DNA of 64,000 bases. Source: Paraspadella gotoi. Lineage: Eukaryota; Animalia; Chaetognatha. A model generated the notes under the pieces. That model saw only the letters and a list, made by a program, of their open reading frames with translations, was not told the DNA's origin and searched no databases. The translations under genes and the position numbers were made by a program. The DNA lies in the NCBI GenBank assembly GCA_051294375.1, contig CM119265.1, positions 28,426,260 through 28,490,259 on the forward strand, given 5' to 3'. Of this stretch, positions 1,576 to 58,850 are shown in pieces (the stretch's first letter is position 1; the number at the start of each line of letters is the position of its first letter).

Positions 1576-2502
1576 TGTTGCGGATTTCGGGCCGCAAAAA
1601 AGATCAATCCTACAACTACCCAGTAACTACTTTTTCCTATCAGGAAAAACGTTTTATTAGAGTCAGTATATAAGGTGATAGACAAACGCGGGTCTATTAC
1701 CCCTCTCCTTCTCATTCACCTCCTCTTCATCCTCCTCCCAGGGATTCGGGGCCGCGTTCACGAGATTCAGTTCACCTTTCTCTCTTCTCCTACTCGTTTC
1801 TCTCCCTTTTTTTACCCTCATTTTTGTCTTCGTATAGATTTCCCTTCCGTCAATATATTAGTTTCCCTCATTCTCGTCACTTTACTTCCGGTTAGGATAC
1901 CTTTTCAGAGTGGCGCCCAATGTGGGGCTCGAACCCACGACCCCAGGATTAAGAGTCCTGTGCTCTACCGACTGAGCATCCTTTATTTCCAACAGTGAGG
2001 GCCGTTACCAGGCCAAGGATTGCCTATCCAGGGAGATTTGGGCATAGTTCCTCTATGATCCCGAGTCCCAAGGTCCACTGGTCTTGCTGGAGCGCAGTTG
2101 TTCTTCTTTCTTCTTGGGAGGCCGCTGAACTGCCCCCAGAAGCCTTGTTACACTCCTTTTTATAGAAAAATCTAGCCTACCCTTCCTCCTCATCTACATA
2201 AAATAGAGCATCTCATTGGTGCAAGGCTAAAGAACCTGAGTACCCCTTGAGGACCCTCAGCTCTCCTCTCTCTCCTATTGGCTGAGGGCTGTGGTATCTG
2301 AGATCTCTCACTCCTCTCTCTCTTGCTGAGGTGTGCAAGCTTGTCATTGGTTCTTCTGTTTTCCCGCCAACTTCTCATTTGATGATCTATGCTGAGATAG
2401 CTGACATAGCAGAGGAGTGATGAGAAAACTTGCTCAGGTACCTCTCTCTTCCTTCCTAACCTTAGGTTGCTGAGCAGGGGCGAGATCCCTAGCCTCGTAA
2501 CA
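1576..2502. mobile_element. 927-bp LTR-like insertion with an internal PBS and antisense tRNA-Lys
   Basis: Termini TGTTGCG...CGTAACA; 5-bp TSD ataat/ataac (the empty site in the 13-kb MITE copy reads gtatta-ataac-ctt); TATA at ~1667; TTTTCA-gag-TGGCGCCCAATGTGGGGC at 1902-1928. Confidence 0.8.
1911..1977 (-). pseudogene. tRNA-Lys(CTT)-derived sequence with encoded CCA, lacking ~9 nt at the 5' end (extended PBS)
   Basis: Reverse complement GCTCAGTCGGTAGAGCACAGGACT-CTT-AATCCTGGGGTCGTGGGTTCGAGCCCCACATTGGGCG-CCA. Confidence 0.85.
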
Positions 2503-24492: not shown

Positions 24493-24493
24493 T

Positions 24494-24923: not shown

Positions 24924-25207
24924 ATTCTTTAGAATATCTATATGCTTCTCTCTTAATGGCAGAACACCCCTCATGCTTAATGTTTCTTAATGTTTTTCAA
25001 ATCTGCCAACATCTTTAATTTAATACAAGTTTGAAAACAAAATTGTTGAATCTTAGAAATCAGCACGTGTTTAAGAAAACCCTTCCTACTGGCTTAATAA
25101 CCAGTGAGGAGAGGGACTTCCATCTCTTCTGTTCAATTTACAAACCCAAAACGCCCACCTCCATCGCCATCGATAATCCTATCACCAGTCACCTCATCTC
25201 AAGAAAA

Positions 25208-26963
25208 ATGTCTGTTTCAGCAGCTGGAGGACCTTCACCCTCACAGATCTTTTCTGCTAATCTATCCACAGAAGTAAAAACCAGTAATTTTACTTACAAT
25301 GGTAGGATCTTTGATGGTATTACAGTAAACTCCACTTCATCCATGTCTGGCCAAATGTTCTCAGACTTTCTAACCCTGTCCCAACGAGGCGACGTCGCTG
25401 TATCCCCAAATATCGCACACCTTCACCGATACGTTGAATTATGTAGGGAATGGTGCTTGCAGAGTGGTGCAAGAGCCATCGGTGGGAACTGTGTCCTCTA
25501 TACCAACAGGTTCCCCCAGACAGAGATAGCCCCCGCCGTGACAGTTGTACACCAAACTCAGGACATATTGAGAAGGCTTTTCCCTGGTGGAGGAAATGGG
25601 GGAGCAGGTGGGGGAGGATTCAACGTTCAAGGGCTGGCACAATACTATGCCTATATGGGCATCTCTGGAGTTGGTGGGGGAGTTGGCATGGTAATGAACG
25701 GAACATCTACCCAACAGCAGGATCCCATACCCATTAATTACAATAACGTCTTTTGGTGGGCCATTGTAGGAATGATCTTTCACGTCTCCCGCAACCAAAC
25801 CATGGAGCAACTATTGACCAGACTTCAAAGCTTTATTTTAAATTCGAACTCCAGGACAAGAACGTCTGCGACAGAGGCTGAGGTGAACTTCCTTAAGAAT
25901 GCTCTGTCTATCCACCAGTTTACCCAATGTGACTCTAGAAAATTCCCTGCATACACTCTCACAACAAAAAAATTGAGCATTGGAGTTAGACTGGGCTTTG
26001 CCCTCGTCTTTATGAATGTCACAGGGAAGCACTGCAGATGCAGTGAACCAGAGGAGCTTCCCTTTGCTTACGAACAAGCCCAGGCCCTTCATCTCTTAAC
26101 CAGGAGGTTCAATTCTGCAAGAGAAGATAACCAGAAGGTTAATCTAGGACATATTGTCCAGCATTGTTTGACAGATAGAACTTTCTTTACAAACTGCGTT
26201 AACACTGACCCCACATCTCTACAGTATACTGCAGGCTCATCAGTTCAAAATTCTTATGTTTATACCAGAGACATTCCTTCGATGCAAAATTCTGTTTCAT
26301 GGTTGCAATCAGGCATTGCCTGTATTCAGATGAGGAACTATAACTGGATTTCACAAATGCCACCAATTGTGGGCGGAGGAGGAGGTGGTGGTGGTGGAGG
26401 AGGCAGTGGTGGTGGCACCGGTGGAGGACGAGGAAGCGGCAGAGGCGGCAACTCAGGTGGGACACCCTCTGCAGGCTTCAGCAACCCTGGGCCAGCAGGC
26501 TCTTTGTTTGGAACAACAATCACTCAGGGTGGCAACAGAGGTGGAGGACAAGGTGATCCACCATCCAACCAAACGGCTGAGCTCATGAGCTTACTTAAGT
26601 CACTTATCCCCGACCCATCGCAACAGGGATCACAACAGCCACCTACAAATTCAAGCTGGTTTCCTACTATTAGCGGCCAGCAACCCACTGCTAACACTCA
26701 GCAAGATCCACAAGTCAGCCAAATTGTCAGAAGATCACAGACAATTAGCTCTGTCCAAGCAGCCATGCAGTCGACCCAATCTGCCCAAGCTGGATCACAG
26801 CATCCCTCACCCCAAGTAATCAGCATCAACCACAACCACCCCCACAAGCTCACAACACCAGCAAAATCCGTCCCAAACTGCTCAAAATGATCAAGCTCCA
26901 ACTCCCCAACCACCACTTCCCTCTGTCAATACCTCACTTCCTGGTCCATCGGGTTTTCGCTAA
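25208..26963 (+). CDS. Endogenous RNA-virus-like ORF1 (nucleoprotein/capsid-like; folded ~390-aa N-part, Gly/Gln/Pro/Ser-rich tail)
   Basis: Long intronless, CpG-poor ORF unlike the host exons; two 1-nt deletions near 26810 and 26845 relative to the duplicate shift the tail; the restored end is PGPSGFR* at 26963. The viral call rests on architecture, not on a search. Confidence 0.6.
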
Positions 26964-27006
26964 GAGGTGAACAGGGTCCCGATGATCACCTCGCCAAGTA
27001 AGGGAC
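26951..27006 (+). promoter_or_regulatory. -1 programmed ribosomal frameshift signal (second copy at 24784-24840)
   Basis: In-frame G GGT TTT, 6-nt spacer, stem 1 GAGGTGA(A)CA/TG(A)TCACCTC, stem 2 GTCCC/GGGAC; the -1 frame leads into ORF2. Confidence 0.85.
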
Positions 27007-28483
27007 ACCAACACCTCAGGAAAAGATGCCAGGACTGCAGAGATTTTCTTAACAGACGGATCTATGATTGATGTTTTAAACGAAAATCCGATACTAAACC
27101 AACTAGAGGAGGCAATTAACTTAGCTAAGCCAGAAGAAAAAATTAGGTTTCATAAAGAAAGTTCCGATGTAGTGTCCGTGTATTTATCATTGTTGACATT
27201 GCCAGAGATAAGACAGAGCAGAATTCAATGGTTGACGGAGTGGGTGGAAGGAAAGGGCACAGACAATACCGAAAAAGAACTATTGAGAACACTCAAAGAA
27301 CTCAAAAAGTATTATACAACAAGAGCTTATAAGTGGAAATCCAATGGTGAAGAAGAAGCTATTGTTAACTCTGCTGTCAAAGTAACATCTCAAAGGCTCA
27401 GGGCTAGGAAACTGAAGATCTGTGTTCCATACTATGAATATTCACCAACAAAACACTTTGAATTAGAAAAAGTCATATTCCTAAGTGCTAAAGTGAGATT
27501 AATGACAATGATATATGCTGATGAGAAGAATTATTCTGCTGCCATCAATGTAGTAGACGATGTCCTCAGGGATAGTAAGCAAGCTTTGTTGAATATACAT
27601 AAGGAGCAGGGGGCCAACATTAACTTTGATGTGCCGTTGACATTTCACAAAAGCCCTTCTAGGTATATGTTGAGGGATGAGATGTACACAAATGTTAAAT
27701 CACTATATGAACTAGACACCATAAAAGACTACTACGATGATAAGTTCCCTTCAAAATGGCTAACAGACTATGGTGTTCCCCCTCAATTTTGGTATTGGCA
27801 GAGCCTCAGAGGCAGAATTGAACCCCCAATCCCCGACACTCAATCAAGTGTGACTTCTTCTAATACTGTTGTTAACCAGGAGTTTTGTGCCAACAATACC
27901 CATTCTTCTGCTGATCCAATTCTCCCTGAACCTTCACCACCCCTAGTTACCTGAATAACAATGCCAAACTTGCCTACTGCAGAAGAAACTGGAATAAAAA
28001 CAACAGAAATTGTATATCCATCAGCAGACACCTCAGGCGGTCAAATTATTGCAGAAGTTTTGTTTCCTGATAGTGTACATGCAAATGAACCTGTTGAATC
28101 TAACACTCCAGCTGAAAACTCAAGTGAAACTCAGAAAGAGACCGAAACAACATCAGAAGAAGCAGAGACCCAAGAAGATGCTTCTGAGGATGAAATAGAA
28201 GAGACAACAACATCAAGTCAAGCCTCAAGGGGATGTAACGGACTCTGACGAAGACAGCTTATTCAACTTGTTGCTTGACGATACATCAGAGAGAAGGCAC
28301 CCCTTGGAGTTACCTGTAATAGCCAGTTATAAGAACGGGAATTTGAAAGATATGGATGAACTCATCATGTACATTGCATCTAGTACAGCAACGGACGACT
28401 TGATACAGTATTTTTCTGTTAATGATATAATCAGGACTGCTTATGGCATGTCCTCAGACTCCGCCAATGTTTCCATATATTAA
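26957..28483 (+). CDS. Virus-like ORF2 in the -1 frame (~500 aa reconstructed; 1-nt deletion ~26993, in-frame TGA at 27952, frameshift ~28225)
   Basis: ORFs 27064-27954 and 27961-28248 are in the same frame, 28268-28483 follows after one shift; folded N-part, acidic S/T/E linker, small C-terminal domain; no RdRp or RT motifs visible. Confidence 0.55.
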
Positions 28484-29098: not shown

Positions 29099-31143
29099 AT
29101 GGCGCAACGGTCTTTGACTTCTTCTTTTGTCTCTATCCCCGGTGTTCTGCGATATTTGGATGAAATCTTTCCCGTGCGCGCCGACGGCGTCCAGTTTCGT
29201 CCAGATGCCTCCACCCTTCAGCTGCATCTGCTGATGGGGGAGTTGCTCGGGCAGTTCCCAGACGACGGCGAGCCGCGTTTCTCTCAAGCGCGGTGGGGCG
29301 CCGTTCGGGCCGCCCTCCTCGCCTCCTCTTCAGAGTTTGGCATTACATATCCATTGTTTCGATCGTTTCTCTCGCGGCTCTCGGCTTGGTGAGTACTTTT
29401 TCTAGTTTTGCTTGTTGAGGGAAAAGAAAAGGTTTTCATATTGAAAATCAATCTCTCTCGTTTTCCGTTCAGTTCCAATGATCGGGCGGGCGCCTTCTAC
29501 TCCGGGCCGGCCTCTGCGCTGGTCGACCGCGCCGCCTTCGGTGGGCGTGCCGAGTACTTCACGGTCCGGCCCGTTTGGTTTGCCTGGAGGGTGGCGATAT
29601 GCCCGTCAAGGCCGTCGGCGGTGCCCGCGTCGCCGGGCGGGTCTACTACGGCCAGATCCGTCTCCCCGTGTCGGACGCCGCCAACCATCTCCCGCTGTGA
29701 GTGTATTTTTATGCGATTTTACGCCATGTTAATTCTCCTGCTTGATTTGTTTCTCTCTATAATCCTGTTTTCCTCGTTGTTTTATTTACTACAACTCTTC
29801 CATTTTATTTTCAGTGTTCAAGTCTGGCCGCACGACCAGCGCCGCTCGGAAGTTGTCGACGCATCCGCCGGGCATCTTGGGCGCTACCAGCTGCCACGTA
29901 ACCGTCCCGTGACGCCGCCGGTGAGAACCACGTAGTTCCTGCTTTTATTCTGCTTTATTTTCTGTCGTTCACCTACGTTTATTTATTTATTCATTTATTT
30001 ATTTCATATACTTTATCGTTTGTTTATTTTTGACCAATTCCTTTCTTTTTTTTCTCTGACGCCGACCATGTCGTCGTCGGTCAGAGCGGGCATGGCGTCA
30101 ACGCCTCTCGTAAGTACTCGTTGTTCTTAGCTCTTTTCGTTTGTTTTTGTTTCCGTTTGTCTGTTTTCTCAGTAATGATGGAAGCGAGATTATTCTCATA
30201 GTGTGCCTCATTGTTTTCTCAGATTCAGGCCGCGCCCGACACGACGGCGTTGACTGTCCTGGTGGGCTCCTCCCGTACTTCCGCCAGGGCGCCCCCCGTC
30301 TCCGTGGCGCCTAGGGCGTCGTCCAAGGCCGCTTCGATCTCGGCGCCGGCGCCGGCTCCAGCCCCCAGCGATCTGACGACAAGTCGTGGCGTCGTTCGTC
30401 CTTCCTCGCCCGGCGGGGAGTCGTCCGGGGACTCATCGTCCTCGTCTCCGGTGACCTCCGCCTCGTCATCATCCGAGGCCGTTTCCCTCCGCAAGTGTCC
30501 CTGGCGGCCCGCTTCCCCCTCGTCAGTCGAGGAGCTCGTCGCATCCAAATCGAAGCGGGTTCGCGGCGGGAAAAAGGCGGGGAAGGCTCGGCGGTTGAAA
30601 GGGCGGTCTTCCAAGGTGAAGGCTGCCTCCCACAAGTCATCGAAGGGGTCTCGGCGCTCACCTGTGGCGGCGCCCGAGACGGCGTCATCTGCACGGCCGG
30701 GTCCGGCGTCCTCAAAGGACCGGACCCCTAAGAAAATGTCTAAAGTTGGCGCCGCCAAGGTGACGTCGCCGGCGGCAAAGTCGTCGGGAGGCGGGGCCAC
30801 TGGGACCGGGCCCAAGGCGGCGTCTGGCTCGCCGAGGGAGAAGGGCATTCGGGGTGGGAAGGCCCGGCGCCGTTCCCGGTCTCCTGCCGCCAGCGCCAAC
30901 GCCCGCACCAACGCCACCAACAGCTACACTGCGGCTGAGGGCGCCTCGAGCGCTGCCCGGGCGCTCGCGAATTGGCGCCCGTGTTCCAATCCGGGGCAGT
31001 ACGCGACCCCATGCCGCGTTGTCGGCTCTATAACAAACCCCCGGTGCCATCATCAGCGCCTACCCGCGGCGGTCATCATGGCCGGAAGTTCTATCCCCGG
31101 CATTAGCCTTTGTGTTATTTATTCATTTTTAAATTTGTTTTAA
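29099..31143 (+). CDS. Spliced orphan gene ending in a basic S/A/P/K/R-rich region and a WRPC-x9-C-x9-CHH motif
   Basis: GC-rich blocks bounded by GTGAGT/GTAAGT donors (29389, ~29697, ~29921, ~30109) and TCAG acceptors (29472, ~29814, 30222); C-terminal motif shared with 42277-42939. Confidence 0.55.
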
Positions 31144-31889: not shown

Positions 31890-32182
31890 CCGGGGTCGTG
31901 GGTTCGAGCCCCACATTGGGCGCCGCCCTGAAATAAGTCACTGGCTAAAGAAATACTCGAGGAATAGTGGTGAAGCGTATATTGAAAAAAGACGATCACA
32001 AAAATAAAAATATTACAGAGAGGCGGAGAACAGGTCTTAACACAAGAGAAGGAAAGTGGGAAGTGAAACTCGAATGGAAAAATCTCGTGGCTGCGCGAAA
32101 CCCCCGATCGAAAAGGAGGAGGAAGCGAAATGGGAGGGGGAAGAAGATCTGCGCGTCGCCTCCTCCTCACGCTTATTTATAG
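31890..32182 (-). mobile_element. LTR-like segment (TATA-R-U5) followed by a PBS extended into the 3' half of tRNA-Lys
   Basis: Reverse complement CTATAAATAAGCGTGAGGAGGAGG...TTATTTCA-ggg-CGGCGCCCAATGTGGGGCTCGAACCCACGACCCCGG; homologous to 33038-33296. Confidence 0.75.
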
Positions 32183-33037: not shown

Positions 33038-33296
33038 GCGTGAGGAGGAGGAGATCTTCTTCTCCCTCCCATTTCGCTTCCTCTTCCTTTTCGATCGGGG
33101 TTTTCGCGCAGACACGAGATTTTTCCATTCCAGATTCACTCCCTACTTTCCCTCTCTCTCGTTAAGACCTATTCTACGCCTCTCTGTATTTTTTATTATT
33201 TTATGATCGCTTTTTTTCTCAATATACGCTTTACCACTACTTCTCGAGTTTTCCTTTTAGCCAGAGTCTTATTTCAGGGTAGCGCCCAATGTGGAG
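33038..33296 (+). mobile_element. LTR-like segment with tRNA-Lys PBS, inverted copy of 31890-32182
   Basis: GCGTGAGGAGGAGG...TTATTTCA-ggg-TAGCGCCCAATGTGG. Confidence 0.75.
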
Positions 33297-34994
33297 TCTT
33301 GTTCTCTAACCACGAACCGCCCTGGATCTCTTTATATCACAATTTTACCTAAAATCTTTTTTTTTGTCTAAACCTTCGACTTCAAAATTTTTTTTTTTCT
33401 CTTTTTTTTCCTTTCTCTCTCTTTCGTCGGATCGATCGCCTTCCACTCCGGTTCTTTCTATAAACTTTTTCCCCTCTCCGCCTCCCATCCAAAAAGAGGA
33501 AAAGAAAAGAAAGTGGGCAGCCGATAGGTTGAGAAATCTTAACCAAACCTTTCCTCCCTGAGCACCAGAAAATTCATCCACAAAGGAGAGAGGACTCTGC
33601 TTTCGGCAGCCCCGGTGACGAACAAACCGGAGTGGAGAAGACGTCAGGCCGACCTGAAGCGATCCAAGGAGAGGAGGCCAACCAGGAGCGATCCGAAGAG
33701 ACGAGGAGGCCAATCAGGACCGATCCGAGGAGACAAGGAGGCCGACCAGAACTGATCCGAGGAGACCGAGTTGAAAGCAACGAAGAATAAGAATAAGAAT
33801 AACAAGAATAATTAAATTTAATTACAGACCGATGGACATGACCCAGGAGATTTTCTTTGATCCCCATTGAGATTTTGTGATCGGGGGAAGGTTCTAGTTA
33901 CCTTCCTCCAAAGTGAACTCTTTAATTCAAAGTAGCAAGGTTTATGATCCAAAACAATGGAAAAAATAAAACTAAACTAAATACATTATAATCGTTCTGT
34001 GACAAAATATGTATAAAACAGTAAAATAAACAGACTAAATTCAGATGAAAATGTCCATTCCCTTCCAAAGGAGACACAACTTGAAATGGTGATAAATAAA
34101 TGAATAATAAGTAAATAAATGATGAATTTCAAATAAAAGGAAATTTTTTTTATTATCCAATTTTTTTTTTCGATTTTTCTATCAAATCTGAGTCGGCGCT
34201 TGGCCACCTATAAAAGGGGAAAGGAGTCTTACTCATTTGCTCCCGAACAATTTCCCCTCGTTGTCCGTCATTTTCATCAAATTTTCGTTTTTTCCCGATT
34301 CAACAACGGACAACATGCGCCTCGCCTCGGGCCTCGTTTTCCTCACGCTTATATCCCTGGGGTAAGTCTTTACAAAGGAAAGGGATCGGCTAAGTCCACG
34401 GAAAAATGACAGAGCTAAATGCATGATAATTTAGTCAGCAAACAGCAAAATATGTATAAGAGAACAAATACACAATATTATCACTAAACATTTACCAACG
34501 AAAATTCGACAGAATAGGAGTGAAATGAAAACAACCGTTTGTTTACGATTTTTCGAATTTCAAAATAGGAAATTTTGACAATTACGATTTTCACTTTTGA
34601 GGCAGTTTCGTCGTAACTCCTCGTCACTTTGAACGGATAGGCATCTTTGGTGATGGTAAAGTCGGTTATTCATTGACTTTAAAATTGACAATATCACAAT
34701 ACATATTACAATAACATTTTGTGACAACACCTAGGTTACATTTTATAGGGATTACAAATCCGAAAGGATCATGACAATGATTAATATGTAATTAATAGTG
34801 ATTATTATTATTCCCAGGGTAACTAAATATTTGAGTAAGCGACAATTAGTATGAATTTAAGGCAATCCGGCTATTATTTTATTGATTATTTATCTCTTTT
34901 ATCTTTAAGAATAAATGGTCGGTCACGTTTTTGTTTATAATCGAATATTTTAGTTTGAAGCTTTTTTAGCTGTTTTCAAATTTTTTCCTTTCAG

Positions 34995-37822: not shown

Positions 37823-38162
37823 GGACATAACAACCCTGAAAGAACTTTCGCAGCTAAGAAAATGCTGGACGAAAATAGAATGCGGAGTGGCAAAATTACA
37901 TTCGGTTCCGCTCGCACGTTCATCGCGAACGAACAATGAGCGAAAACCTCATATCCTGTCTGTTACACATATCCGAGCCAGACCGTCACGCACGAAGGAC
38001 TGAAGTTTTCCTGGTCCGTCGCTTCCGAATCGATCGAAAAGCTTTGCTGTAAGTTTTTTTTATAATTTTTTTATTATGAGCTCGTATTATGTCGCCATTG
38101 AAAGCGAAAGCAACTCAATAAAACATGTGGAGTGCCGAGACGCTTCAAACCATCGCAGAATC

Positions 38163-38484
38163 GCTCCTCTTCTCTCTCTTTTCCTCCTCCCTCCTCATCC
38201 TCCTCACGGGGATTCGGGGTCGGGTTCAAGTTTAGGTTCAGTCCATCTTCTCCTCTCTCTCAGACTCTTTCTCTCTCTCCCTTTTTTTGGACCTTTTTAT
38301 ATTTTCGGATAGAGTATAGAACCCAGATATGAAATATACTTATTCACCTCCCATGCCTTTCCGTTTCCGATAGACGTGAGTTTTAGTTAGGCCCAGAGCC
38401 CACCAGTTAGAGTGGCGCCCTTGTGTCGTCGCTCAAACTTTTAACCACAAAAGACCCCATCCTCCGAGTCCTGTGCTTCTACCG
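38163..38484 (+). mobile_element. LTR-like repeat A1 (38163-38412) plus degenerate PBS/antisense tRNA-Lys
   Basis: Direct repeat of 44749-44996; followed by TGGCGCCC and, further on, GAGTCCTGTGCTTCTACCG matching the tRNA anticodon/D arm. Confidence 0.8.
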
Positions 38485-38759: not shown

Positions 38760-40117
38760 ATGCTTAAAAAATGTCAAAATGAAATCGATAAAAGTTATAA
38801 AGAAAGGCAAGAACTAATGGCTGCTCTTGATTCGTTGAACTCTAAAATAAACAACCAAGAAACTGAGAAAAGTGTCATCCAAAATAAAGTTGATGCATTG
38901 GTTGCGAGAGATGAAAATACTTTCCTTGAGGCGAAAAAACAACTTGATAACTCATTTGCTCAAGTAAAGCAGTCCCAATTAGCCATAGAGCACAACTTTG
39001 TTGCATTTGCTCAGGCCGAGTTTAATATTAAATTTAATGAAGATGAAGATTGTGCGAATTCTAAAATCTTAGAAAGGATTGCAGATCATAAAAACTACTG
39101 CAGGATGCACAATACCCTCAAAAACAATAAAGAGTTCCTCGCGAAACTTCGTGATAAACTAAATGCGGAAGAATCTGTGGAGGTGAACGTTCCAATCTCT
39201 GAACCACGTGAAATAAACTTTTTATGCACTAACACAAACGACAACATTGACACTCCAATGGAGAATACTCAAAATATCCATGCGGATGAGTTAGTTTTTC
39301 TTTGTGATCAGTTGGAGATTGAGAATGGAGGTGATATGGATGTTGGTGAGTGAGGTTCACTCACAGATTTTAAACAAACTCAAAGATGTCGACGGTAGTC
39401 CTGGAGAAGTAGAAAGTGTTAAAAATGCAACGGAATTGGGGGATGGTGTACAGGACTTAATAGAAAGTACAATGGTATCGGCGGATGGTGTACACAACTT
39501 AATAGAAGAATTTTGGTTTTTGTCTCAACGGACATTGGGGGAGACCTTGGAGTAGGTGAAACAAGAATTAATATATTTTACGATGGGTCCATTTCCTCTC
39601 CATTGGTCCATTTAATTAGAGACCCCCTGTTCTCCGAAACAGTCGCTCACACTGAAGGTGACAATGCTAAGTTATTAGAAGACGCATTTAATTGTTCTAC
39701 GCTATCAACTCCACCTATCACCATGTTCAACCCTGTCCTCTCAGTCGAAGACTTTGGTGAGGTTTTATTTCCTTCTGATATCACTTTAAATAACTCGCCG
39801 AACCACTCTACGCCAAAGAAAAGTGCTTCCCTCTGAAAATAACAGCGCTATCTAGCCCTAAAACGTCGCCACCTCTAAAACGAAAAAACAAATTCCGTCT
39901 CAGAAACAACACAGAAAATGAACCGTCGGTGCTTGCTTATCTAAACCGTTGCGACAATCAAGGCAACCTGGGTTTACCTTCAACGAGTAAAGAAGTTTAT
40001 AACCTAAGCAACGCTGTTGAGTATTATTCTACTAGTCTTAGGAGTGGCGAAGACGATTTGGGGGCTGGCGATGACCTAATTAAAGAAGCGTTAGCTTCAT
40101 CAAAAATATCTGGTTAG
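38760..40117 (+). pseudogene. Frameshifted orphan ORF, coiled-coil N-terminus and acidic tail, downstream of the A1 PBS
   Basis: Overlapping ORFs 38760-39353, 39304-39555, 39513-39836, then 39929-40117. Confidence 0.45.
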
Positions 40118-42276
40118 TGAGTTAATAAACATTAATATAATAATAATTATATGTAAAGAATTTAAGTTAAGCAGTGTTGAAAATGAACTTTTGTATTTAT
40201 TTCGGTTGCTTTACTATTATTTTATTTATAAAAAAGTTTTTTTTATAAATATGATACAGTTGTTCTTTTTTTTGTCTAGTAATAATAGTGCCCATAATGT
40301 TTTTAAAAAATGTAAAAAGCTAATTTAATTAAATTAGTCAATTTTTTTATGAAATGTAAAGTGCAAATCTACAAGAAAGGAAAATTTTTATTTAACTTTT
40401 ACCTAATATGCAAAAAACATTGCAATTTTCTCCGGAGTATAAAAAATGATGAGACATAAAAAAATGAAAAGGTTGAAAGAATGTTTTATAAGATTAAAAA
40501 GATTGGATTAATAATTATCTCAATATCTTTTGATTTATCTTTTTTAATTTAAATAAATGTTAAGGTAACTCAAATGTATTTATTTGTTTATTTTTAAGCT
40601 TAAATAACTACGGGAACAAATAAATAGTTTTTAGTGGGTAATGCACTTATGATGTAAACCATAATTAGTTTTTTAAACCAATTTTCTCTTTTCTTTAGAA
40701 AACAAATTTTATAGATGGATAAAGATTGGAACATATTATTTGAGATGGACATTTAAGGTTAACATTAAGGTGAGCAAATTTTCATGTATTGAAGATATAA
40801 TTATTCTTTGAAATAATATTAATACTCGATTTTTTGCTCAAAGGTATCATGTTTTTAAAATGGGGGATAATATAAAGGTGAGCAAATAATTGTGTATTAA
40901 TCATTCTTAATATTAATACATAGTTTTTTTTGCTCAAAGGATTGTTTATGGATCGTGTTGGTATATCAAAGGGATATTAGAAGACTTTCGCCGGGGATAT
41001 CGTTATTAAAGACTCAATAGACATTTTGTACAGATTTAATTTGTCCTTTTGTTTGAAGTATTTTTTTATATTGAACGTTAGTTTTACATTTTACTTAAAA
41101 AATTAGATATCGGATAAAGATGGAGAGAATTGTCAGTAGGTACTGTAACAGGGACGTAAACGTACATTTCCGCAGAATGTACGTTTATGAGAGACCCATG
41201 AATGTGAAATTGGATGAATTTACAGTCCCAAAGACCTGGTCTTCGGGATTGATTCATCAAAAGGATAAGATTGACATCGACATGAGCAAGGACAAGCTAT
41301 ACAATTACAGGCTTCCGACTCAGGAAGCCTTATAGTCCATGGTGGCCTCGTGGCCGACTAAACTTTTCGGGATCGTGTACAAGGAAGACTGGGAATGTAC
41401 AAAAGCTACATTCCTAACCCCACCCAGACACCAAGTAGACACTTGGGTCTGGGATACTTTGCCCGAGATGGCAACCTGTGCTTAGGATGGCATGGGATGG
41501 CATCGTGCATGTGCGAAGGTCAAAGGTGAGTCTCAGTGCATGGAAAAGCGTAGATGGCAAGCGTGTCAACATGGGGGGAAACTAACATCATGCACATAAT
41601 TAAAAACAACGAATAAAGTCAATTACAAGTCATCAAACAGTAACATCAAGTACAAATCAGAAAAAAAAGGGGGGGGAGGATCATCACAAACGGGGACAAC
41701 GTCAGATCACATCATTGGCAAGCTCAGACGATCAAACAAATTATCACAAAAAGATGGGAAGCAGTATCACCAGGGGCACCATAGGTATCATCATGAAAAA
41801 AAAAAATATCACAATCATCATTAATATAAGCAACATCATAAGCATAAAAAAAAACAAAAAACATAAGAGAAAAAAAATATATACGCAAAAAAAATTCAAT
41901 GATTCAGTGGATGCTGGGTGCCTGTGCGGAGCGTTATATTCATCCCCTATGTATCCTGGTCATTGGAGGCTGAAGGCGGGGGGCGTGACCAGCGCATGCG
42001 TAATATAGGTGCGTAAATAGTTTTTTTTTATTTTGAAGATTTTTTTGCGAGGCTCAGCCGCCTCCTTTTCTCTGCATTCTAATGGACTACGTCGTCGGTC
42101 ATGGGATTGTAGGGCGTGGCCCGGAAGTGGGCGCGGCTCAGAATCCGAAGTGCCTCGGGAGGGCGAGGGCGTCTCAGGGAACGGCGAGAGCGCTCCCAAG
42201 CTCAAACTGATGCGGCTTCCCGCTGTGCGGTTCCAGCTGGTCGAGGCAGAGCTCGACTTCCTCCAAGCGGGCGAGG

Positions 42277-42939
42277 ATGGCGTTCAACGACACAAGATTA
42301 TTCTTGACGACCTCTTCCACGTCCGTATTTCCGTTCTTCTGCCCTCCGATTTCGCCGCAGCCGGCCATCATGTCCTTATCAAGCGTCAGCACCATGGAAC
42401 GCTCGTCGCGAAAGCGCTCATGGCGCCCACGCCAGTCCTCCTCGGAGCCCGACGTCGCGCCAAAGAAAGCCGTCGGTCACCACCATCGCCAGAAAGGGGG
42501 CGACGTTTCTTCAAAGGCAACGTCTCCTAAGCCAAAGGCGTCAAAGGCGCGCCTCTCGCCGGTGACGGCGCCAACACCGGCTCCCGTCGCTCCGTCGACC
42601 ACCAAGAAGGCGCCTGGCAAGTTGGGGCGAATCCCCAAAAAGACAAAGGCTGAAGCGAGTGGGAGCTCAGCTCGCCCGGCGTCTCCTACACCGCGCGGCG
42701 AGGCGCGGCGCCGCTCTCCACCGCGGTCGCAATCACCGCGAGCCGAACCGGCGCCCTTCAATGCCGCGGAGGGGGCGCATGCGGCCGCTGCTGCCCTGGC
42801 CCGGTGGCGTCCATGCGCCGACCGCCACCGGTATTCTAGCGATTGCCGGGTGGTCGGGTCGCTATATCACCCCGTCTGTCATCATAAGCAGACGCCACGC
42901 GGCGGGCGTCGCGGTGGGCGTGGCCCATATCGGAACTAG
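42277..42939 (+). CDS. Basic S/P/K/R-rich orphan protein with WRPC-x9-C-x9-CHH motif, paralogue of the 30211-31143 ORF
   Basis: FNAAEGAHAAAAALARWRPCADRHRYSSDCRVVGSLYHPVCHH vs YTAAEGASSAARALANWRPCSNPGQYATPCRVVGSITNPRCHH. Confidence 0.65.
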   Translation: MAFNDTRLFLTTSSTSVFPFFCPPISPQPAIMSLSSVSTMERSSRKRSWRPRQSSSEPDVAPKKAVGHHHRQKGGDVSSKATSPKPKASKARLSPVTAPTPAPVAPSTTKKAPGKLGRIPKKTKAEASGSSARPASPTPRGEARRRSPPRSQSPRAEPAPFNAAEGAHAAAAALARWRPCADRHRYSSDCRVVGSLYHPVCHHKQTPRGGRRGGRGPYRN

Positions 42940-44424: not shown

Positions 44425-44571
44425 ACTCTTCTCCTCTCTCTCCTTTTCCTTTGTAGAATATTTGCTGTGGCCTTAACCCCTTTTTATTATTACGTACTTA
44501 CCTTACTTACCTCTTTTACTTGGTGAGAGGGTAGTCAGAACCTATTCTAGCCAGTTATCCTATCTTCAGAG
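44425..44571 (+). mobile_element. LTR-like repeat B1 ending TTCA-gag at the PBS
   Basis: Direct repeat of ~46375-46538. Confidence 0.8.
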
Positions 44572-44647
44572 TGGCGCCCAATGTGGGGCTCGAATCCACG
44601 ACTCCGGGATTAGGAGTCCTGTGGTCTACCGACTGAGCTAACCGGGT
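44572..44647 (-). pseudogene. Full-length 76-nt tRNA-Lys-derived copy with encoded CCA (anticodon now reads CCT)
   Basis: Reverse complement ACCCGGTTAGCTCAGTCGGTAGACCACAGGACTCCTAATCCCGGAGTCGTGGATTCGAGCCCCACATTGGGCG-CCA, directly abutting repeat B1. Confidence 0.85.
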
Positions 44648-44748
44648 CTCTAACCTGGGTCTCTTATCTCTTATCCTTCTCTCTCTCTCTATCTCTCTTT
44701 CGCGTGTTCTTTCCAGAATCGAAGGCCGGTAGACGTCGCGGGTCTACA

Positions 44749-44996
44749 GCTCCTCTTCTCTCTCTTTTCCTCCTCCCTCCTCATCCTCCTCACGGGGATT
44801 CGGGGTCGCGTTCAAGTTTAGGTTCAGTCCATCTTCTCCTCTCTCTTAGACTCTTTCTCTCTCCCTTTTTTTGGGCCTTTTTATATTTTTGGATAGAGTA
44901 TAGAACCCAGTTATGAAATATACTTATTCACCTCCCATTTCCTTCGGTTTCTTCTAGACGTGAGACTTAGTGAGGCCCAGAGCCCACCAGTTAGAG
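44749..44996 (+). mobile_element. LTR-like repeat A2 (no PBS after it)
   Basis: Direct repeat of 38163-38412; upstream TAGAC...CGCGGGTCTA is also seen at 1679-1697. Confidence 0.8.
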
Positions 44997-46374
44997 CTTT
45001 CCTCCCAAAAAATCTCGAAATTGACGAAACAAAATTTAAAAACAAAAAAAAAACCTTCACTTCCTTTCACCTTCGGCGACTCTCCAGCAGAATGTCCATC
45101 TTCATGGCGACATTCCCGGTCAACGTCGTCATCCTTCTCCTGATCATCTGCAGCGACCTCAATGGGACTAACGACAATCGTCTTCTCTCTTGCTCTCTCT
45201 TCCCCCTATTTCCTTTTCTGTGTAACTCATGACCCCCTTTTTTTTTTGAAAAATAGTTATATATTTTTTTAGTTACAATTACAGTTCAAAACAGTGTGTT
45301 ATTGCATGGATTTCCCGTTTCTATTTTACTGTACAACTTCTCGGAAAGTAAATTTTTTTTAATTTTTAATTTTAGATTTTGCTTTAATTTTTTTTTTTGA
45401 AACATAGATTGCTGGAAGTTTATAATTGCATTGTGCGTTTCATCATTTCGTAGTGTGTTTTATTTTTAGTTCAGTATGATTCTCAGTCCTTTTTTCCCAT
45501 TAAATTTCGAATTTTAAAAATTTATTTTTAAAAGTGAAAATTGAAAATTAGTTTTACAGTATGATTTATTGCTAGTTACAAATTTATTTTCTTGCCATCT
45601 CTTCACGTCAAATTCCTGATTTTGAAACCTTTTAAAATAATTTTTAATATTCATTGAAGCGTTTCTAGTTTCATATTTAGTGTGTTTTAATTGTTAGTTT
45701 TGCTTTAATTCATCTTTCCCCTTTAAGTATCCTTTTGTTTTTGTTTTTTTTATGAAACAACTCCCTTTTTTTATTTTTAATTTGATTTTGATTTTGATTG
45801 TTTATTTTTTTTTGCAAAAAAAATAAAGAAAAACAAAACAAAAAAATATAAATTTTGACTATTAAAAGTAGCGTGTCTTTCCCACCCCTTGAGCAATTGT
45901 ACCCCCCATCCCTCCCCAAAAGCCAACCTCGCTGACGAGACTCAAGGCGACGTCCGGTTCCGCCCTCTCCGACCAGCGCCTCGTCCAAACCAACCAATGA
46001 GGAGCCTAAGACGACATTCCCCCCCACCCCCCAAACATCGCGTCCACCCCACCAATCCGCCTGACCCGGCTGGCGTCCGCCTCTGCCCCTGACTTTCCAC
46101 AAGCTCCACGCCCACACCAAGATGATGGCGACGCCCACCTGTGACATTCAAGACCCAAGTGGGCGTCTCTGACCAAGAGAGGGGCACAAGATAGAGGCTC
46201 ACCCTATCACCAGGGCCTTCCCTCTCCCGCCGGGCTTCCTCTTCCTCCTCTCAACGTCCCCCTCCTCCTCCTCCTCTCGTCGCCTCCTCCTCCTCATCCC
46301 TGGGAGTGCATCGGGCTTCCTCTCTCTCGGACGGCACTCACGGCGCAAGGGCTACCAAGACCGCGCGATCCCCT

Positions 46375-46538
46375 TTTCCTCTCTCTCTTTTTCCTTTGTA
46401 GTGTATTTGCTGTGGCCTTAACCCCTTTTTATTATTACATCTTTACCAGCAGATGTCTACATATTTACCTTACTTACCTCTTTTACTTGGTGAGAGGGTA
46501 GTCAGAACCTATTCTAGCCAGTTATCCTATCTTCCGAG
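46375..46538 (+). mobile_element. LTR-like repeat B2 (no PBS after it)
   Basis: Direct repeat of 44425-44571 with one ~20-bp indel. Confidence 0.8.
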
Positions 46539-53500: not shown

Positions 53501-56500
53501 TTCAATTTAAACTCATTTCTACTTGACGATTCCATCGAAACTTAATATACAGCTCAATCACACACTTCTCTACCCACACACAAAATTTCATTCCAATCCA
53601 TCCTTTCAATCACGAGTAATTGGTGTTTTTTGCTAAGGTGGGATGGACGGACGGACAGACGGACGGACGGACAGACAGACAGACGGACATCTTTTTTTTG
53701 CATAATTAATCATAATTCGATGTTCTGACATGATATAAGTGACTGCCCGACAATATTGAGGGAGCGGACCGACAAAGTGAATTATAGAGTCGGGATCTGC
53801 TGAAAGCAGATCCGACTAAAAATATGAGTCATGCAGAGGCAGCCAGAAAAAAGAAAGATATCAAAAGGCAGCAGCAGAAGCAGCAGGAGAAAAGAGAGAA
53901 AAAGAAAAAGTCCCTGCAGAGCCAGCTGCAGGCTCGTTTTTTTCCCGATGAATCAGCACTAAAAATGATCATAAAAATGATGCAAGTAAAAAAAATGATG
54001 CAAGTTAAAAAAATGATGCAAATTGAAAAAATTATGTGAGTTGAAAAAATTATGTGAGTTGAAAAAATTAAGTGAGTGGAAAAAATGATGCGAATTGAAA
54101 AAATGATGCGAGTTAAAAAACATTTTAAAAAAAATTGTGATTTATCATCTGATTATCTGATTAATTATCATAGGCAGATCCGACATTGTTTGCTCAAACT
54201 TGTTGAAAAAAATGTTTACTTTATTTTACGAGCAATTCTAATACGGTCTTAAAATTTAATAACAAATTAATTTCAATTCATTACAATATATAAATATAGC
54301 TTAAAGGTTTCAAGTAATGTATAAAATTATAAAAAAAATCACAAGCTATTTTAAGACACTTTAATTGTACTTAGGCTAAAAGGGCAAAATAGGCAATTTT
54401 TTTTTCTTGTAATCTTGTAATTCACAGAAACTGATGATGTTACATTCTTGTTAATTTTAATTTTTTTTCTTATATTTTGTATTTCATGTATTTATCTGTA
54501 ATTTAATTTGTTTTTGTTTAAAGAAAAAACAAAAACTGAGTTGTAATTGAAAATATGCTTGTTTTTATTTAATGAAAATATTTTTCTAATGAACGATTAT
54601 TAATTATATTACATTTATAAAATATAGTCTCGTCTCTTACACTTGGATGGAACTTTCACGTCTTCCAGACCATTCTTGCTAGATTAACCCAGTTTGCCCG
54701 CAACCTCCGCCACCAACGCAGCGAACTGATGCCGATGCTGTGTTCGTCCAAGACTCGACAGCTGCTAATTAAAGTTTTAAACATTAGGACACCCCAGAGA
54801 GACCGGTGAACAGCTTCGTGATCGTAATAGAGCTGTGGATGCCTAAGCTAGCGCTGGAAATGTCATCCAGTTTTGGTCTGAGACGACAACGATGACAATG
54901 TCTTTGATGGAGAGCATTGTCTAGTCATCGTCTCTGCAGGGTTTGAACCCTCTTTCTTTCCTCCACTCTTGGGTGACTAGCCATCTCGTATAATGAGACA
55001 TATATCTTCGAGAGTTTAATATTTTTATGAACTTAAAATAATTGATAATCAATGTAAATAAAAGATTTTTCATAGAGATTCGATCTCGGGAGTTTCGGCC
55101 CACATCAATTTGCTTAGTGGAAGGCGCCACTCTGTTTCACAACATTTATATATTCACTTTTACAATTTATCTATTGTAGTATGTCAATAACATTTTTAAA
55201 ACAAAAGACACTATAACACATAGTTTAATAGGTGTCATCACTAGTTCTATTATGTTCATTATTGTTATCTACATTTCCATTGTTAAGTCTTTAACCTTCA
55301 CAAAGTATTTCTCTTAATGTCATTTATGTTTACTACTTCATTTGTTGATATTTATTGATTTCGTTAATGTTTATTTGTATTAATGTTACTGTTTACAATA
55401 TTGTGTAATATAGATATTTTGATTGCTTGTCGGTAAAAGCAGCCAGAATATCTATATGCTTTGATTATTTTATTAAGGCCTGTTTTCAGGAATGAACAAA
55501 TGAAACTTTTGTTCCGGAGAATATTTTATTATTCATACGAACTTTGGAGTCAAATCGTTTTAGCCACATTGGTGAAACCGACGCAGAACTGTAACGCCTC
55601 CATCATTCCGCGAGGCGTCACCCAACCTCTCGACGAAAAGCCAATGAAACCGGACCTCTAAGCTTTTGATAAAGAAAATATCGAGATCTGGATTCGGCGA
55701 GTCGAATCCGCATATACTCGCGCAAGAGTAGTCAACGCCAAAGACAAGTTTGCCTTTTTGGAGGCCAAGATCCCCGTCGACACGAATCCCCGCATCAACG
55801 AGCCTACTGCCGGCAATTGTACTCTCTTCCTCGAATATTTGCGCCGCGCTTACGGCCTTACGAATCCCCGACAAGCTAAGTTACTCCTCGACAGGAAGGT
55901 CAACGAAAAGTCGACGACCGTCTTTATAGACGACATTCGCAAAGAACTGGTTCTCAGTGAGCTCCCTCGAGACATCCGGACCAATCTCATCGACCGCGCT
56001 GAAACGGCAACCGCGGCCGAGTTAGCCAAGGCGGCCGACAAGCACTTCGACGCCAAACGTCAAACGAGCGCCGCCCCTCAACATGATCGTCGACGACGCC
56101 GTCTCCGACAATTCCAGCGACGACGATCACATCTATCCGATCAGCGCCGTCAACAGGCGCCACGACCATCGCCCAAAGCCTCACCAAAAGCAAAGCCGCC
56201 CTCATGACACCTCCAACGCCTCGTCAAGCAGATCAAGTGGCGNNNNNNNNNNGGACCTGGCTGATCGATGGAGGAGCTCTCACTAATTCCTCCAACTCCG
56301 AAGCGCGTCGCCGGCAAACGGTCCTCAGCTTCAGGCGGCGAACGGCACGCCCATCGCCTGCTACGGAACGGCACATAAGCGGATCAATTTGGGCCCAAGA
56401 TTGTTCCCATTTTAATTGCTTATCGCGGACGTCACCCAGAGCTGATTTCTTGGCGGAGTTTTTCTTGGCCGCCAATCACCGCGAAAGGAATTCTTTTGGA

Positions 56501-58850
56501 TTTTTCAACAATCACCTGCGCCCGCTCGTTCGTCAAGACGGTGGCACACGTCAATTTTGTCGATCAATCCGACAAATATTATCAACTGCTAGACAAATTT
56601 TCAACCGTGCTCACGCCGACATTTGAAATTCGAGAGCCCAAACACGGCGTCCGCCATTTTATCCCAACACAAGGTCGCCCTTGTCAAGCTCGGGCGAGAC
56701 GGCTCTCCCCAGAGAAACTGGCGGTTGCGAAGGCAGAACTAGATAAGATGGTGGAATTGGGCGTCGCACTACGAGCAAAAAGCCCATGGTCATCCCCACT
56801 CCACTTCTCTTAACCTTATCTGACCGATTCTTTGGACTCTCTGGTCACCTTTGGCTTCCTTTGGGCCCGATAACTAATAACAGATAGAGAGAAACTTTTA
56901 AAAATTGACATAAATGTGTCTTTTGGTTTTCTTTTTTAAACTCTTTTTTTATTCCTACAATTCCATCAAAAACTTATATCCAGCTTAATCTCATTGTTTC
57001 TACCCACACACAAAATTTCATTTCAATTTATTTATCCAATTTTTAATCAATATAATAATTATTGATTGATTAATTAACTGATTAATTATTTGATTAATTA
57101 TTATATTATTATTATATATATTATTATATTATCATGCATTTTCATTTAATATAAAAATAAAAAGAAGCATAATCTGTTAAAGATTTCTTGCCTCGTTTAC
57201 TCATTTTCCGCCATTTTTAGGCCAATTCATTTTACGGTCATATTTTCGCGGGATTAACAATAATCAATTTCATAGTTAATGAAATAAAGAAGATGATCGA
57301 ACCGCGGGCGTGAAGACAAATCAAAGGAAAAAATCTTCGCATAATCAATTAGTGAAACAGATATTTTGTTTTTTCCATTTAAATTCATTTCCACTAAGAC
57401 GATTCCATCGAAACTTGATTTCCAGCTTAATCACACACTTTCATACCCACATACAAAATTTTAAGTTCATTGTCCCATCCACTCATGAGTAATTGGTGTT
57501 CAAATAGTTTAAACACTTTTTCACTCGCACGATTTCATCAAAACTTCATATCTAGCTCAATCACACACTTCCCTACACACACACAAAATTTCATTCCAAT
57601 CCATCCATCCAATCACGAGTAATTGGAGTCTTTTGCTAAGGTGGTACGGACGAACGGACGGACAGACAGACAGACAGACAGACATCGTTCTTTTTTTCAT
57701 AATTTATCATGGTAATTATCCTTTCTTTTTCGTTGTTTGAGAGATTAACAAAGTTTGATTTTATTTTTGCAACGAATTTTATTTTACAAGAGCAGACATG
57801 TTTCGGCTCACAATACGTGCCTTCATCAGCGCATAATTTATCATAATTCGATATTCTGACATGATATATGTAGTTAGCACACAATATTGAGAGGGCGGAC
57901 CGACGGACCGACAAAGTGAATTATAGAGTCGGGATCTGCTTATAAGCAGATCCGACTAAAAATTATAATAAATTTTACAATTTACGCAGTCGGCCATATT
58001 TATACTAGTACTAAACCAATAAATGTTAAAATTTTAAAACAGTTTTTACTAAGATTTTTTTGCAGATTCGGATTCGTAATAAAAAGTTGATAAAAAGAAA
58101 TATAACTCTTTTTGAAAAATTCCTTCATTAAGTGGGTCAAAAATTAAAAAAAAGCTATATTTTAATGAAAGAATTTTAAAAATGATTTATATTTTCTTTT
58201 ATCAACTTTTGACGAGGAATTCAAATCTGCAATCAAAATTAAGAAAAGGCTATTTTGAAATTTTTAGAATTAGAATTCGATGGTATCCTTTTGTTTCGTT
58301 GTGTTTTGAAATTAGCAAAATATTTGTTTTTTTACAACAACAATTTTATTTGACGTAAAAAAACAGACATGTTTCGATTCTGTTTCGAATCTTCATCAGC
58401 GCATTCAGGAGCCAGAGTTAAAGAGAAAATACCATTAAATGCTTTTGTTTGTTTTAAATCTTAATATTTTAAATTTAAAGTTAAATTATAAAATTAACCG
58501 ATCTTAATGGTTAACCATTAAAATATTAGTTTTAACGGTTAGGCGAATTTCCTAAAAAATTAACGGTTATCGGAACTCTATTTAAGATTAATATTTAAAA
58601 TTAAGGTTTAAAATTATATTCTAAATTTAAAAAATATATTTAAATAAAATATTAAAATTAAAATTAAATTCCCGTATAAAGTAATCAAAATAGGGCGCTT
58701 TTGTAAAAGAGAGCCCATGTCTCACTCTTACTCACCGGATCTTCTTTCGAACATTGGACATATCACAGTTCGATTCGTACAAAACGTGAGACTCAAAATT
58801 TTTGCGTCGGACGAAAACAAGAGTAGAAGAAAACAAAAGGCAATCAACAT
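47583..58850 (-). CDS. Single-pass receptor with signal peptide, Ig-like ectodomain, TM and divergent TIR-like domain (exons 58850-58736, 51381-51272, 50482-50208, 49662-49221, 47790-47583)
   Basis: MLIAFCFLLLLFSSDA signal; LTCSA..C.HW..EGEMDCRL Ig-like pattern; TM AIVSGVVVGFVVVSLIVVFL; VLVLCSY..LRRRGLDV..WPVG..DAVADAAE..AVVYLTLEYL fits the TIR pattern; three of four junctions are in phase, the 50208/49662 junction is off by 1 nt. Confidence 0.65.
47783..48085. repeat. 39-bp minisatellite built from a splice acceptor; looser copies at 48885-49050
   Basis: Unit AGGCTAATCTGAATAGAAAATTGAAAGGAAAGCCAATGAGT; reverse complement contains TTTTCTATTCAG|ATT. Confidence 0.85.
52962..54204. mobile_element. 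Helentron/DINE-like repeat block bounded by ~30-bp inverted repeats
   Basis: AACAAGTTTGAGCAAACAATGTCGGATCT at 52962 and its reverse complement ending 54204; internal (GGAC/AGAC)n and hairpin AGTCGGGATCTGC-tgaaa-GCAGATCCGACT at ~53788-53817. Confidence 0.6.
55570..56813 (+). mobile_element. Ty3/Gypsy (CsRn1-like) LTR retrotransposon remnant: PBS, gag, protease and RT start
   Basis: CACA-T-TGGTGAAACCGACG (tRNA-Trp-like PBS); FDKENIEIWIRRVESAY gag; WLIDGGA protease; HGVRHFIPTQGRP..RRLSPEKLAVAKAELDKMVELG..SPWSSPLH RT; frameshifted and truncated. Confidence 0.9.
57340..57960. repeat. Second Helentron/DINE-like copy with 3' hairpin
   Basis: Homologous to 53350-53820; ends AGTCGGGATCTGCTTATAAGCAGATCCGACTAAAAA. 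Confidence 0.65.
57792..57832 (-). ncRNA. Minimal type I hammerhead ribozyme (Penelope-like/retrozyme type)
   Basis: Reverse complement GCG-CTGATGA-A-GGC-acgtattgtga-GCC-GAAA-CATGTC-TGC: full core, stem II, palindromic stem III, GUC site. Confidence 0.75.
58363..58402 (-). ncRNA. Minimal type I hammerhead ribozyme, second copy
   Basis: Reverse complement GCG-CTGATGA-A-GATTC-gaaaca-GAATC-GAAA-CATGTC-TGT. Confidence 0.78.

What the first reader, a model, noticed from the sequence alone, without database searches (positions are those of the whole stretch)
44425..44647. LTR-like elements whose primer-binding site has grown into a whole tRNA-Lys with CCA
Seen at five loci with several distinct upstream LTR-like sequences: (TTC/TT)A-g(a/g)g is followed by antisense tRNA-Lys of 67 nt (1911-1977), ~36 nt (31890-31925), ~17 nt (33280-33296), degenerate near-full length (38413-38484) and full 76 nt (44572-44647). 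Known: PBSs are normally <=18 nt because plus-strand copying stops at m1A58; eukaryotic tRNA genes do not encode CCA; a tRNA-plus-strong-stop origin has been proposed for tRNA-Lys SINEs. Inference: a lineage that copies the whole primer and so carries an antisense Pol III promoter pointing into U5. It might supply its own primer or make a tRNA-U5 RNA, analogous to the 5S sequence in Cassandra LTRs.
Basis: partly seen in the sequence, partly recalled or inferred. Interest (0 to 1): 0.75.

Follow-up and report, generated by a model that had tools for sequence, protein, structure and literature searches.

The report
Primer tRNA fossils on retrotransposon scraps
Short repeat pieces of several families in this animal genome end in a reversed copy of a lysine tRNA of varying length, and they are likely dead copying intermediates of jumping genes, primer still attached, that were patched into chromosome breaks rather than a new self-priming element.

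Summary
The bodies are 145-340 nt pyrimidine-rich pieces of four families; none has a second LTR, TG...CA ends or a tail. At 1664-1977 the empty site is visible: body plus tRNA replace 17 nt of a multi-copy solo LTR, with 3 nt microhomology and no target duplication. The 76-nt copy is single-copy and decayed (4 of 21 stem pairs broken, none compensated, B-box G53 and anticodon changed). In other organisms 119 of 120 such primer sites are 18-25 nt; one full-tRNA case sits inside a broken gypsy pol. Best reading (0.62): strong-stop cDNA with variable lengths of its primer copied in during break repair, as known for yeast Ty1. Against: tRNA position 58 shows no misreading, and no parent element was found. 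A self-priming long-PBS lineage is not supported. The scan noted similar fossils in two other genomes.

The parts
44428..44571 (+). Family A body (left-truncated), pyrimidine-rich, ends TTCA + 3-nt spacer GAG
   Evidence: 82.5% to 46373-46538 with one 22-nt indel; multi-copy in contigs, left junction on a single-copy contig
44572..44647 (-). Full 76-nt tRNA-Lys copy with CCA, decayed (anticodon CCT, pairs 1-72, 11-24, 28-42, 53-61 broken)
   Evidence: junction contig 44565-44742 at single-copy depth
44648..44713 (.). Filler: near-repeat of the tRNA end followed by short tandem CT-rich units
   Evidence: sequence; read as slippage during repair by inference
44714..44996 (+). Family B body without any tRNA; starts CAG + short hairpin, ends exactly at spacer GAG
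   Evidence: 93% to 38163-38412; three other contigs start matching at 44714 (table 8); hairpin
46373..46538 (+). Family A body without any tRNA, ends exactly at spacer GAG; extends further left (limit not fixed)
1576..2502 (.). Unrelated solo LTR (TGTTGCG...CGTAACA, flanked by ATAAT/ATAAC) that hosts the 1664-1977 insert
   Evidence: empty site at about 13280-13284; about 20-fold single-copy depth in X3
1664..1910 (+). Family B' body, starts CAG + hairpin homologous to B, ends TTCA + GAG
   Evidence: 77% to 44737-44872; left junction from joint 1663-1975
1911..1977 (-). tRNA-Lys(CTT) positions 10-76 with CCA; last 3 nt shared with the target LTR
   Evidence: Rfam tRNA 46.7 bits; 14 of 14 scorable stem pairs intact
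31926..32172 (-). Family C body, ends TTTCA + GGG
   Evidence: 84% to 33038-33294
31890..31925 (+). tRNA-Lys positions 41-76 (36 nt)
33038..33279 (+). Family C body, second copy, same left boundary
33280..33313 (-). 15-nt primer site plus weak second block resembling tRNA positions about 33-15
   Evidence: P about 0.01-0.02
38156..38412 (+). Family B body (hairpin deleted), ends GTTA + GAG
38413..38484 (-). Gapped, degenerate tRNA-Lys match (8-nt start, T-arm remnant, 18-nt block at positions about 33-17)

Best explanation
These are likely dead-end reverse-transcription intermediates of several tRNA-Lys-primed retroelement families, most likely strong-stop cDNA with the primer tRNA still attached, that were likely patched into chromosome breaks, with a different length of the primer copied into DNA each time. 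Shown: body + 3-nt spacer + antisense mature tRNA; tRNA length 0 to 76 nt; fixed left ends within families; at one locus a 17-nt target loss, 3-nt microhomology and no duplication; single-copy long junctions; uncompensated decay. Inferred: the bodies are the 5' leader (R-U5) of the parent RNA; copies that stop at the spacer had the primer removed by RNase H; a reverse-transcribing polymerase ran from the cDNA into the RNA primer during end joining. Minus-strand cDNA with attached primer is favoured over over-extended plus-strand DNA (about 60:40) because B and B' begin at the same CAG + hairpin without a clear U3.
For: Two of 7 window copies end exactly at the CCA/body junction and keep the spacer that an integrase would trim; random 5' truncation would give this with P about 0.001-0.002. 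Empty site for 1664-1977: joint 1663-1975 skipping 311 nt with 17 other letters, depth 686 against single-copy 30-36 in X3, and two X1 contigs stop matching at 1663 and start at 1975. No tail and no convincing duplication at the Lys loci. Long junction contigs at depth 23.5 versus 26.3 for unique flank in X1 and 29.9 versus 36.4 in X3; two other long copies at depth 13.9 and 16.1. In metagenomes 119 of 120 hits of the 18-nt site extend only 18-25 nt; the one 75-nt case (L032) has the LTR end of the gypsy element L068 (29 of 29 nt) and lies inside a pol region between 124-nt duplicates. Precedent: Ty1 LTR-region cDNA with cDNA-only extra nucleotides captured by end joining (PMC11372161, passages); LTR-element fragments with microhomology and no TSD in mouse zygotes (PMC4516963, passages); tRNA read-through products P1-P5 (PMC13191261, passages).
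Against: Position 58 is read correctly in all 4 window copies that cover it and in L032, and no other letter is listed there in the laid contigs, though copying across m1A58 should often stop or err; host tRNA genes may dilute this, or primers may be under-modified. No parent element with a plain 18-nt site and gag/pol was found. Seven copies in 64 kb with no normal solo LTR or provirus of these families is unexpectedly dense for a by-product. The empty site was seen for 1 of 7 copies only, on one X3 contig whose shorter side is 21 nt. A 5-nt repeat (CTTTC) flanks 44714-44996 and could be a target duplication. End points (41, 10, 1) do not match the known stops 58/55/54/37 exactly.
Confidence: 0.62

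Rival explanations
1. Several SINE families with a tRNA-Lys + CCA head and a purine-rich body, read on the tRNA-sense strand; variable tRNA length would be ordinary 5' truncation during target-primed insertion.
For: [quoted passage not shown]
Against: No tail and no duplication at the one locus with a known empty site; two copies truncated exactly at the junction; lack of T4 is expected from composition (2779 of 5000 shuffles); four different bodies share only the LTR-end-like TTCA/GTTA + 3 nt; no family-specific head changes seen.
Confidence: 0.16
2. Some copies (38413, 33280) are not captures but worn 5' ends of parent elements whose leader has a split primer site: a short PBS plus a second block pairing with the D/anticodon arm. 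This would hold beside the best explanation for the clean copies.
For: Both keep the same block (positions about 33-15). In 95 non-redundant metagenome contexts 4 score P<0.01 and 11 P<0.05 for such downstream complementarity (L032, L066, L118, L045, L033). An ATG-started 197-aa ORF begins at 38760. Drosophila Gypsy has two tRNA-Lys2 sites (PMC1635307, abstract only).
Against: The ORF has no retroelement match; the two downstream regions are not alike; 38413 also keeps T-arm and variable-loop remnants in order, as a decayed or error-rich copy would.
Confidence: 0.14
3. One reading: a self-sustaining LTR lineage whose primer site is a whole antisense tRNA, giving a Pol III transcript into U5 or its own primer.
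For: Five of 7 copies run past or resemble more than a plain site; other full-length copies exist in contigs (pieces 4 and 20; loose ends at 1977); one family A variant runs to at least nt 26 at about 2-3 copies in X5 (piece 25).
Against: Different length in each copy; long junctions single-copy; uncompensated decay and damaged A or B box in both long copies; no paired LTRs; 1911 copy is a one-off insert; the multi-copy X1 contig with a B-like body (depth 204) adds no such depth over the tRNA beyond about nt 26 (55.6).
Confidence: 0.06

Closest known systems
Ty1 cDNA intermediates captured at double-strand breaks in yeast (PMC11372161, passages read; Moore and Haber 1996, Teng et al. 1996, Yu and Gabriel 1999 seen only in its reference list, content recalled)
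   Same: LTR-end fragments with cDNA-only extra bases, joined by end joining with microhomology, sometimes several fragments at one break (as at 44428-44996)
   Different: Here natural, inherited, from four families in an animal, dense in one window, and with up to the whole primer copied
HIV-1 over-extended plus-strand strong-stop products P1-P5 (PMC13191261, passages read)
   Same: Reverse transcriptase can copy the primer past position 58, up to its 5' end when the tRNA is unmodified
   Different: Those begin at U3 and are not integrated; end points here (41, 10, 1) are near but not at the listed stops
TRIMp3: Cassandra, Helenus, Ajax (PMC10886601, passages read)
   Same: Small-RNA-derived sequence associated with an LTR; the 1576-2502 LTR copy with its insert shows the kind of accident that could seed such an element
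   Different: TRIMp3 have two LTRs, PBS, PPT and 4-5 bp duplications, with the small-RNA part fixed inside the LTR; none of this is found here
tRNA-Lys-related SINEs and the tRNA + strong-stop origin model (Ohshima/Okada 1993, recalled; not found in the passages of PMC3747384 that I saw)
   Same: On the tRNA-sense strand each copy is exactly tRNA + CCA + complement of a leader, the proposed raw material
   Different: No LINE-type tail, no duplications, no sign of amplification of a tRNA-headed master
Tailless tRNA retropseudogenes (PMC5322556, passages read)
   Same: tRNA copied into DNA without a poly(A) tail
   Different: Those are 3'-truncated, stand alone and have duplications; these keep the CCA end fused to a repeat body and lack duplications

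Membership tests
Captured LTR-element reverse-transcription intermediate | Complement of mature tRNA 3' end (with CCA) directly behind an LTR-like end and short spacer | tested here: met
   5 of 7 copies; TTCA/GTTA + 3 nt; CA lies 1-4 nt before the site in 94 of 120 metagenome hits
Captured LTR-element reverse-transcription intermediate | Insertion without target duplication, with target loss or microhomology | tested here: met
   One locus with known empty site: 17 nt lost, 3 nt shared; other 6 loci have no empty site to test
Captured LTR-element reverse-transcription intermediate | cDNA-only bases kept (spacer not trimmed) | tested here: met
   44996 and 46538 end at the spacer; assumes the LTR ends 3 nt earlier, which needs the parent
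Captured LTR-element reverse-transcription intermediate | A parent element with the same end, a normal site and gag/pol | tested here: inconclusive
   None in the window; no genome held; shown only for the other-organism case L032/L068
Captured LTR-element reverse-transcription intermediate | Stops or misreads at modified tRNA bases (58, 55, 54, 37) | tested here: not met
   Position 58 correct in 4 of 4 window copies and L032; no variant row there
tRNA-derived SINE | Head with intact A and B boxes | tested here: not met
   44572 copy G53 changed; 1911 copy lacks positions 1-9; masters elsewhere not seen
tRNA-derived SINE | 3' tail and target-site duplication | tested here: not met
   No shared tail; best flanking repeats 0-6 nt in simple sequence; none at the known empty site
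TRIMp3 (Cassandra/Helenus/Ajax) | Two LTRs around PBS and PPT, 4-5 bp duplication | tested here: not met
   No paired bodies in the self-comparison
TRIMp3 (Cassandra/Helenus/Ajax) | Small-RNA-derived segment fixed inside the LTR across copies | tested here: not met
   The multi-copy form of the 1576-2502 LTR lacks the tRNA insert
TRIMp3 (Cassandra/Helenus/Ajax) | Pol III transcription from the embedded segment | not testable with these tools
   No run on record as RNA
Host tRNA gene | Intact cloverleaf, no encoded CCA, followed by a T-run terminator | tested here: not met
   CCA encoded, stems broken or truncated, followed by repeat bodies without T4

The most novel reading that the evidence does not exclude
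The parents are tRNA-Lys-primed reverse-transcribing elements of an animal that have no working integrase (pararetrovirus-like or episomal), so that break-repair capture of primer-linked strong-stop DNA is their main way into the genome; these tRNA + CCA + leader fossils would then also be the missing raw material of the tRNA-plus-strong-stop model for SINE birth. Hints: 7 of 7 window copies are aberrant, none is a normal solo LTR, and one B-like contig variant stands at about 8, 1 and over 100 times single-copy depth in three runs, which could also be library type or a polymorphic repeat.
Probability: 0.12. Interest if true: 0.8.

Novelty: new member of a known kind. Interest (0 to 1): 0.33.

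Why it matters
If the best reading holds, it is a natural animal example of a process shown by experiment in yeast and mouse zygotes, and the copies form a countable record of how far primers are copied and where tRNA modifications stop a polymerase in the germ line. It also warns that such loci are called as tRNA genes (here a false tRNA-Arg) and shows how a tRNA promoter can land inside an LTR, a possible first step to TRIMp3 elements or tRNA-Lys SINEs. It is not evidence for a new self-priming element.

Tried and rejected
No whole genome is held, so the genome-wide tally could not be run. Three scans of viral contigs found nothing. No RNA holder listed; X1 is only guessed to be RNA and looks like the same data as X2, so the two are not independent and either may be the source of the assembly. 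Other near matches to the 10-nt start (16181, 29886, 36007, 42421, 43611, 56474) do not continue as tRNA-Lys sites. The gypsy pol remnant at 55662-56813 has no Lys site beside it and is not linked to these bodies. ORF 38760-39353 as a parent gag: one hit in 1.84 billion proteins, a chance match to a repeat protein; atlas scores under 0.8. Absence of Pol III terminators as SINE evidence: rejected. Compensatory cloverleaf change across copies: none. Summed contig depth is not a copy number, and tRNA stretches like human DNA may be filtered, so depth ratios are used only as rough contrasts. The metagenome scan covered 34 of 64 parts; its 120 hits are 93 distinct contexts and include chance matches; 16 of the 80 long-flank loci matched two gag/pol probes. 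Paper searches listed no paper on whole-primer copies at LTR-like ends in an animal genome; the library lacks most subscription and older papers, and no supplements were opened.

Full report
Observation. 44572-44647 is a 76-nt tRNA with CCA on the minus strand; ARAGORN names it Arg(CCT), but the 1911-1977 copy has CTT and laid contigs carry the 1911-type letters at 44595, 44603, 44606 and 44613 in nearly all of the X3 depth, so it is a mutated Lys copy. The gapped copy at 38413 beats 5000 of 5000 shuffles without its anchor. The 33280 copy is 15 nt plus a weak second block (51 of 5000). The window is repeat-rich animal-type DNA with introns and a gypsy remnant; the host is not identified.

Anatomy. 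The upstream bodies fall into four groups: A (44428-44571, 46373-46538), B (38156-38412, 44714-44996), B' (1664-1910, related to B in its left part) and C (32172-31926, 33038-33279). All are 64-69% pyrimidine, lack AATAAA and ATTAAA, and end in TTCA, TTCC or GTTA plus 3 nt. If these were SINEs cut at random from the 5' side, two such exact ends among 7 would have a chance of about 0.001-0.002. Left ends are fixed within families: both C copies begin at the same base; B copies begin at CAG (38156, 44714, and three other contigs); B' begins with the homologous CAG and a hairpin whose outer pair differs on both sides from that of B. A fixed left end with no tail fits the 5' end of a template RNA (inference).

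An empty site. 1200-1578 and 2502-2711 match one continuous repeat at 13051-13666, which shows that 1576-2502 is an insertion with TG...CA ends and a near-perfect 5-nt duplication, that is a solo LTR. Contigs of run X3 show this LTR at about 20 times single-copy depth in a form that skips 1664-1974 and has 17 other letters there; two X1 contigs stop matching at 1663 and start at 1975. The window copy therefore gained body B' plus 64-67 nt of tRNA, lost 17 nt, shares 3 nt at the tRNA end and has no duplication. This is the pattern of break repair, not of an integrase or of target-primed insertion (established knowledge; PMC4516963 passages). The joint rests on one contig with a 21-nt short side, and only this one of 7 copies could be tested so.

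No sign of a propagating long primer site. The contigs over the 76-nt copy and its junctions are at single-copy depth (23.5 against 26.3; 29.9 against 36.4), and two other long copies elsewhere are at 13.9 and 16.1. The 76-nt copy has 4 of 21 stem pairs broken, none compensated, with G53 of the B box changed; the 67-nt copy lacks positions 1-9. No body occurs as a pair around an internal region. Next to the 76-nt copy lie a near-repeat of its own end, short tandem units and then a tRNA-less B body in the same orientation, which resembles multi-fragment repair inserts (inference).

Other organisms. A metagenome scan for the 18-nt site gave 120 hits in 118 loci (34 of 64 parts scanned; 93 distinct contexts). 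119 extend 18-25 nt; one, L032, has 75 nt. L032 shares 29 of 29 nt of LTR end plus site with the gypsy element L068, and sits inside a pol region 71% like that of L068, between 124-nt duplicates. So whole-primer copying recurs as a rare accident of an ordinary gypsy lineage whose LTR also ends in TTTCA. A few ordinary elements have a second block complementary to the D arm downstream (4 of 95 at P<0.01, 11 at P<0.05), which leaves open that 38413 and 33280 are worn parent leaders.

Mechanism. Shown: structure, length series, one repair-type junction, single-copy status, decay. Inferred: a Lys-primed element makes strong-stop cDNA; with or without its primer it is caught at a break; a polymerase able to read RNA runs some way into the primer and rejoins by microhomology. 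Yeast Ty1 gives the precedent, with LTR-region inserts that carry cDNA-only bases (PMC11372161 passages; the 1996 and 1999 papers seen only as references). Reverse transcriptase can copy an unmodified primer to its 5' end (PMC13191261 passages). Against this reading: position 58 is never misread, no parent was found, the density is high, and a 5-nt repeat flanks 44714-44996.

Comparison. It works like Ty1-type cDNA capture; membership is met on three features, open on the parent and not met on the modification signature. It fails the tests for SINE, TRIMp3 (PMC10886601 passages) and host tRNA gene. Papers: passages of PMC11372161, PMC12214859, PMC10886601, PMC5322556, PMC3747384, PMC13191261, PMC4516963, PMC13524379; abstract and outline of PMC1635307; the Okada model and the Leu label are recalled. 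Earlier scan notes describe like fossils with tRNA-Pro and tRNA-Trp in two other genomes; I did not check them, and my reading was stated before I saw them. Notes on this genome concern twister-bearing LTRs, a different element.

Verdict. Real, partly misread, most likely by-products of a known process; interest 0.33. The bold alternative, an integrase-less tRNA-primed parent, is not excluded (0.12).

Noticed in passing
window 4588-4637: Antisense 3' part (43 nt, with CCA, T arm and long variable arm; Leu-type by recall) of a second tRNA, between 21-nt direct repeats (4567-4587 and 4638-4658, 2 mismatches), behind an LTR-like stretch with TATA and AATAAA. Either a retrocopied tRNA half with a target duplication or a second over-extended primer.
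   Followed up: partly
window 25019-27954: Two long intron-less ORFs (623 and 322 aa) in a row, with a 429-nt 98% direct repeat (24493-24919, 26661-27086). No Pfam, atlas or homolog hit; could be an endogenised viral stretch, untested.
   Followed up: partly
window 30202-31143 and 42211-42939: Two GC-rich, low-complexity ORFs that share a Cys/His-bearing C-terminal motif by eye; no Pfam hit.
   Followed up: no
window 38760-40117: ATG-started 197-aa coiled-coil-like ORF followed by further open frames in other phases, 275 nt behind the 38413 tRNA remnant; unidentified.
   Followed up: partly
window 55662-56813: Broken gypsy gag-pol remnant, about 60% like environmental gypsy polyproteins.
   Followed up: partly
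L032 226-300 on the reverse strand; L045, L033, L066, L118: L032: LTR end plus whole tRNA-Lys inside a gypsy pol. The other four: a block complementary to the tRNA D arm 30-100 nt behind a normal site.
   Followed up: partly
window 44761-44871: A 2.1-kb contig with a B-like body has depth about 8 times single copy in X1/X2, while the same variant letters stand at about 1 time in X3 and over 100 times in X5; unexplained.
   Followed up: no
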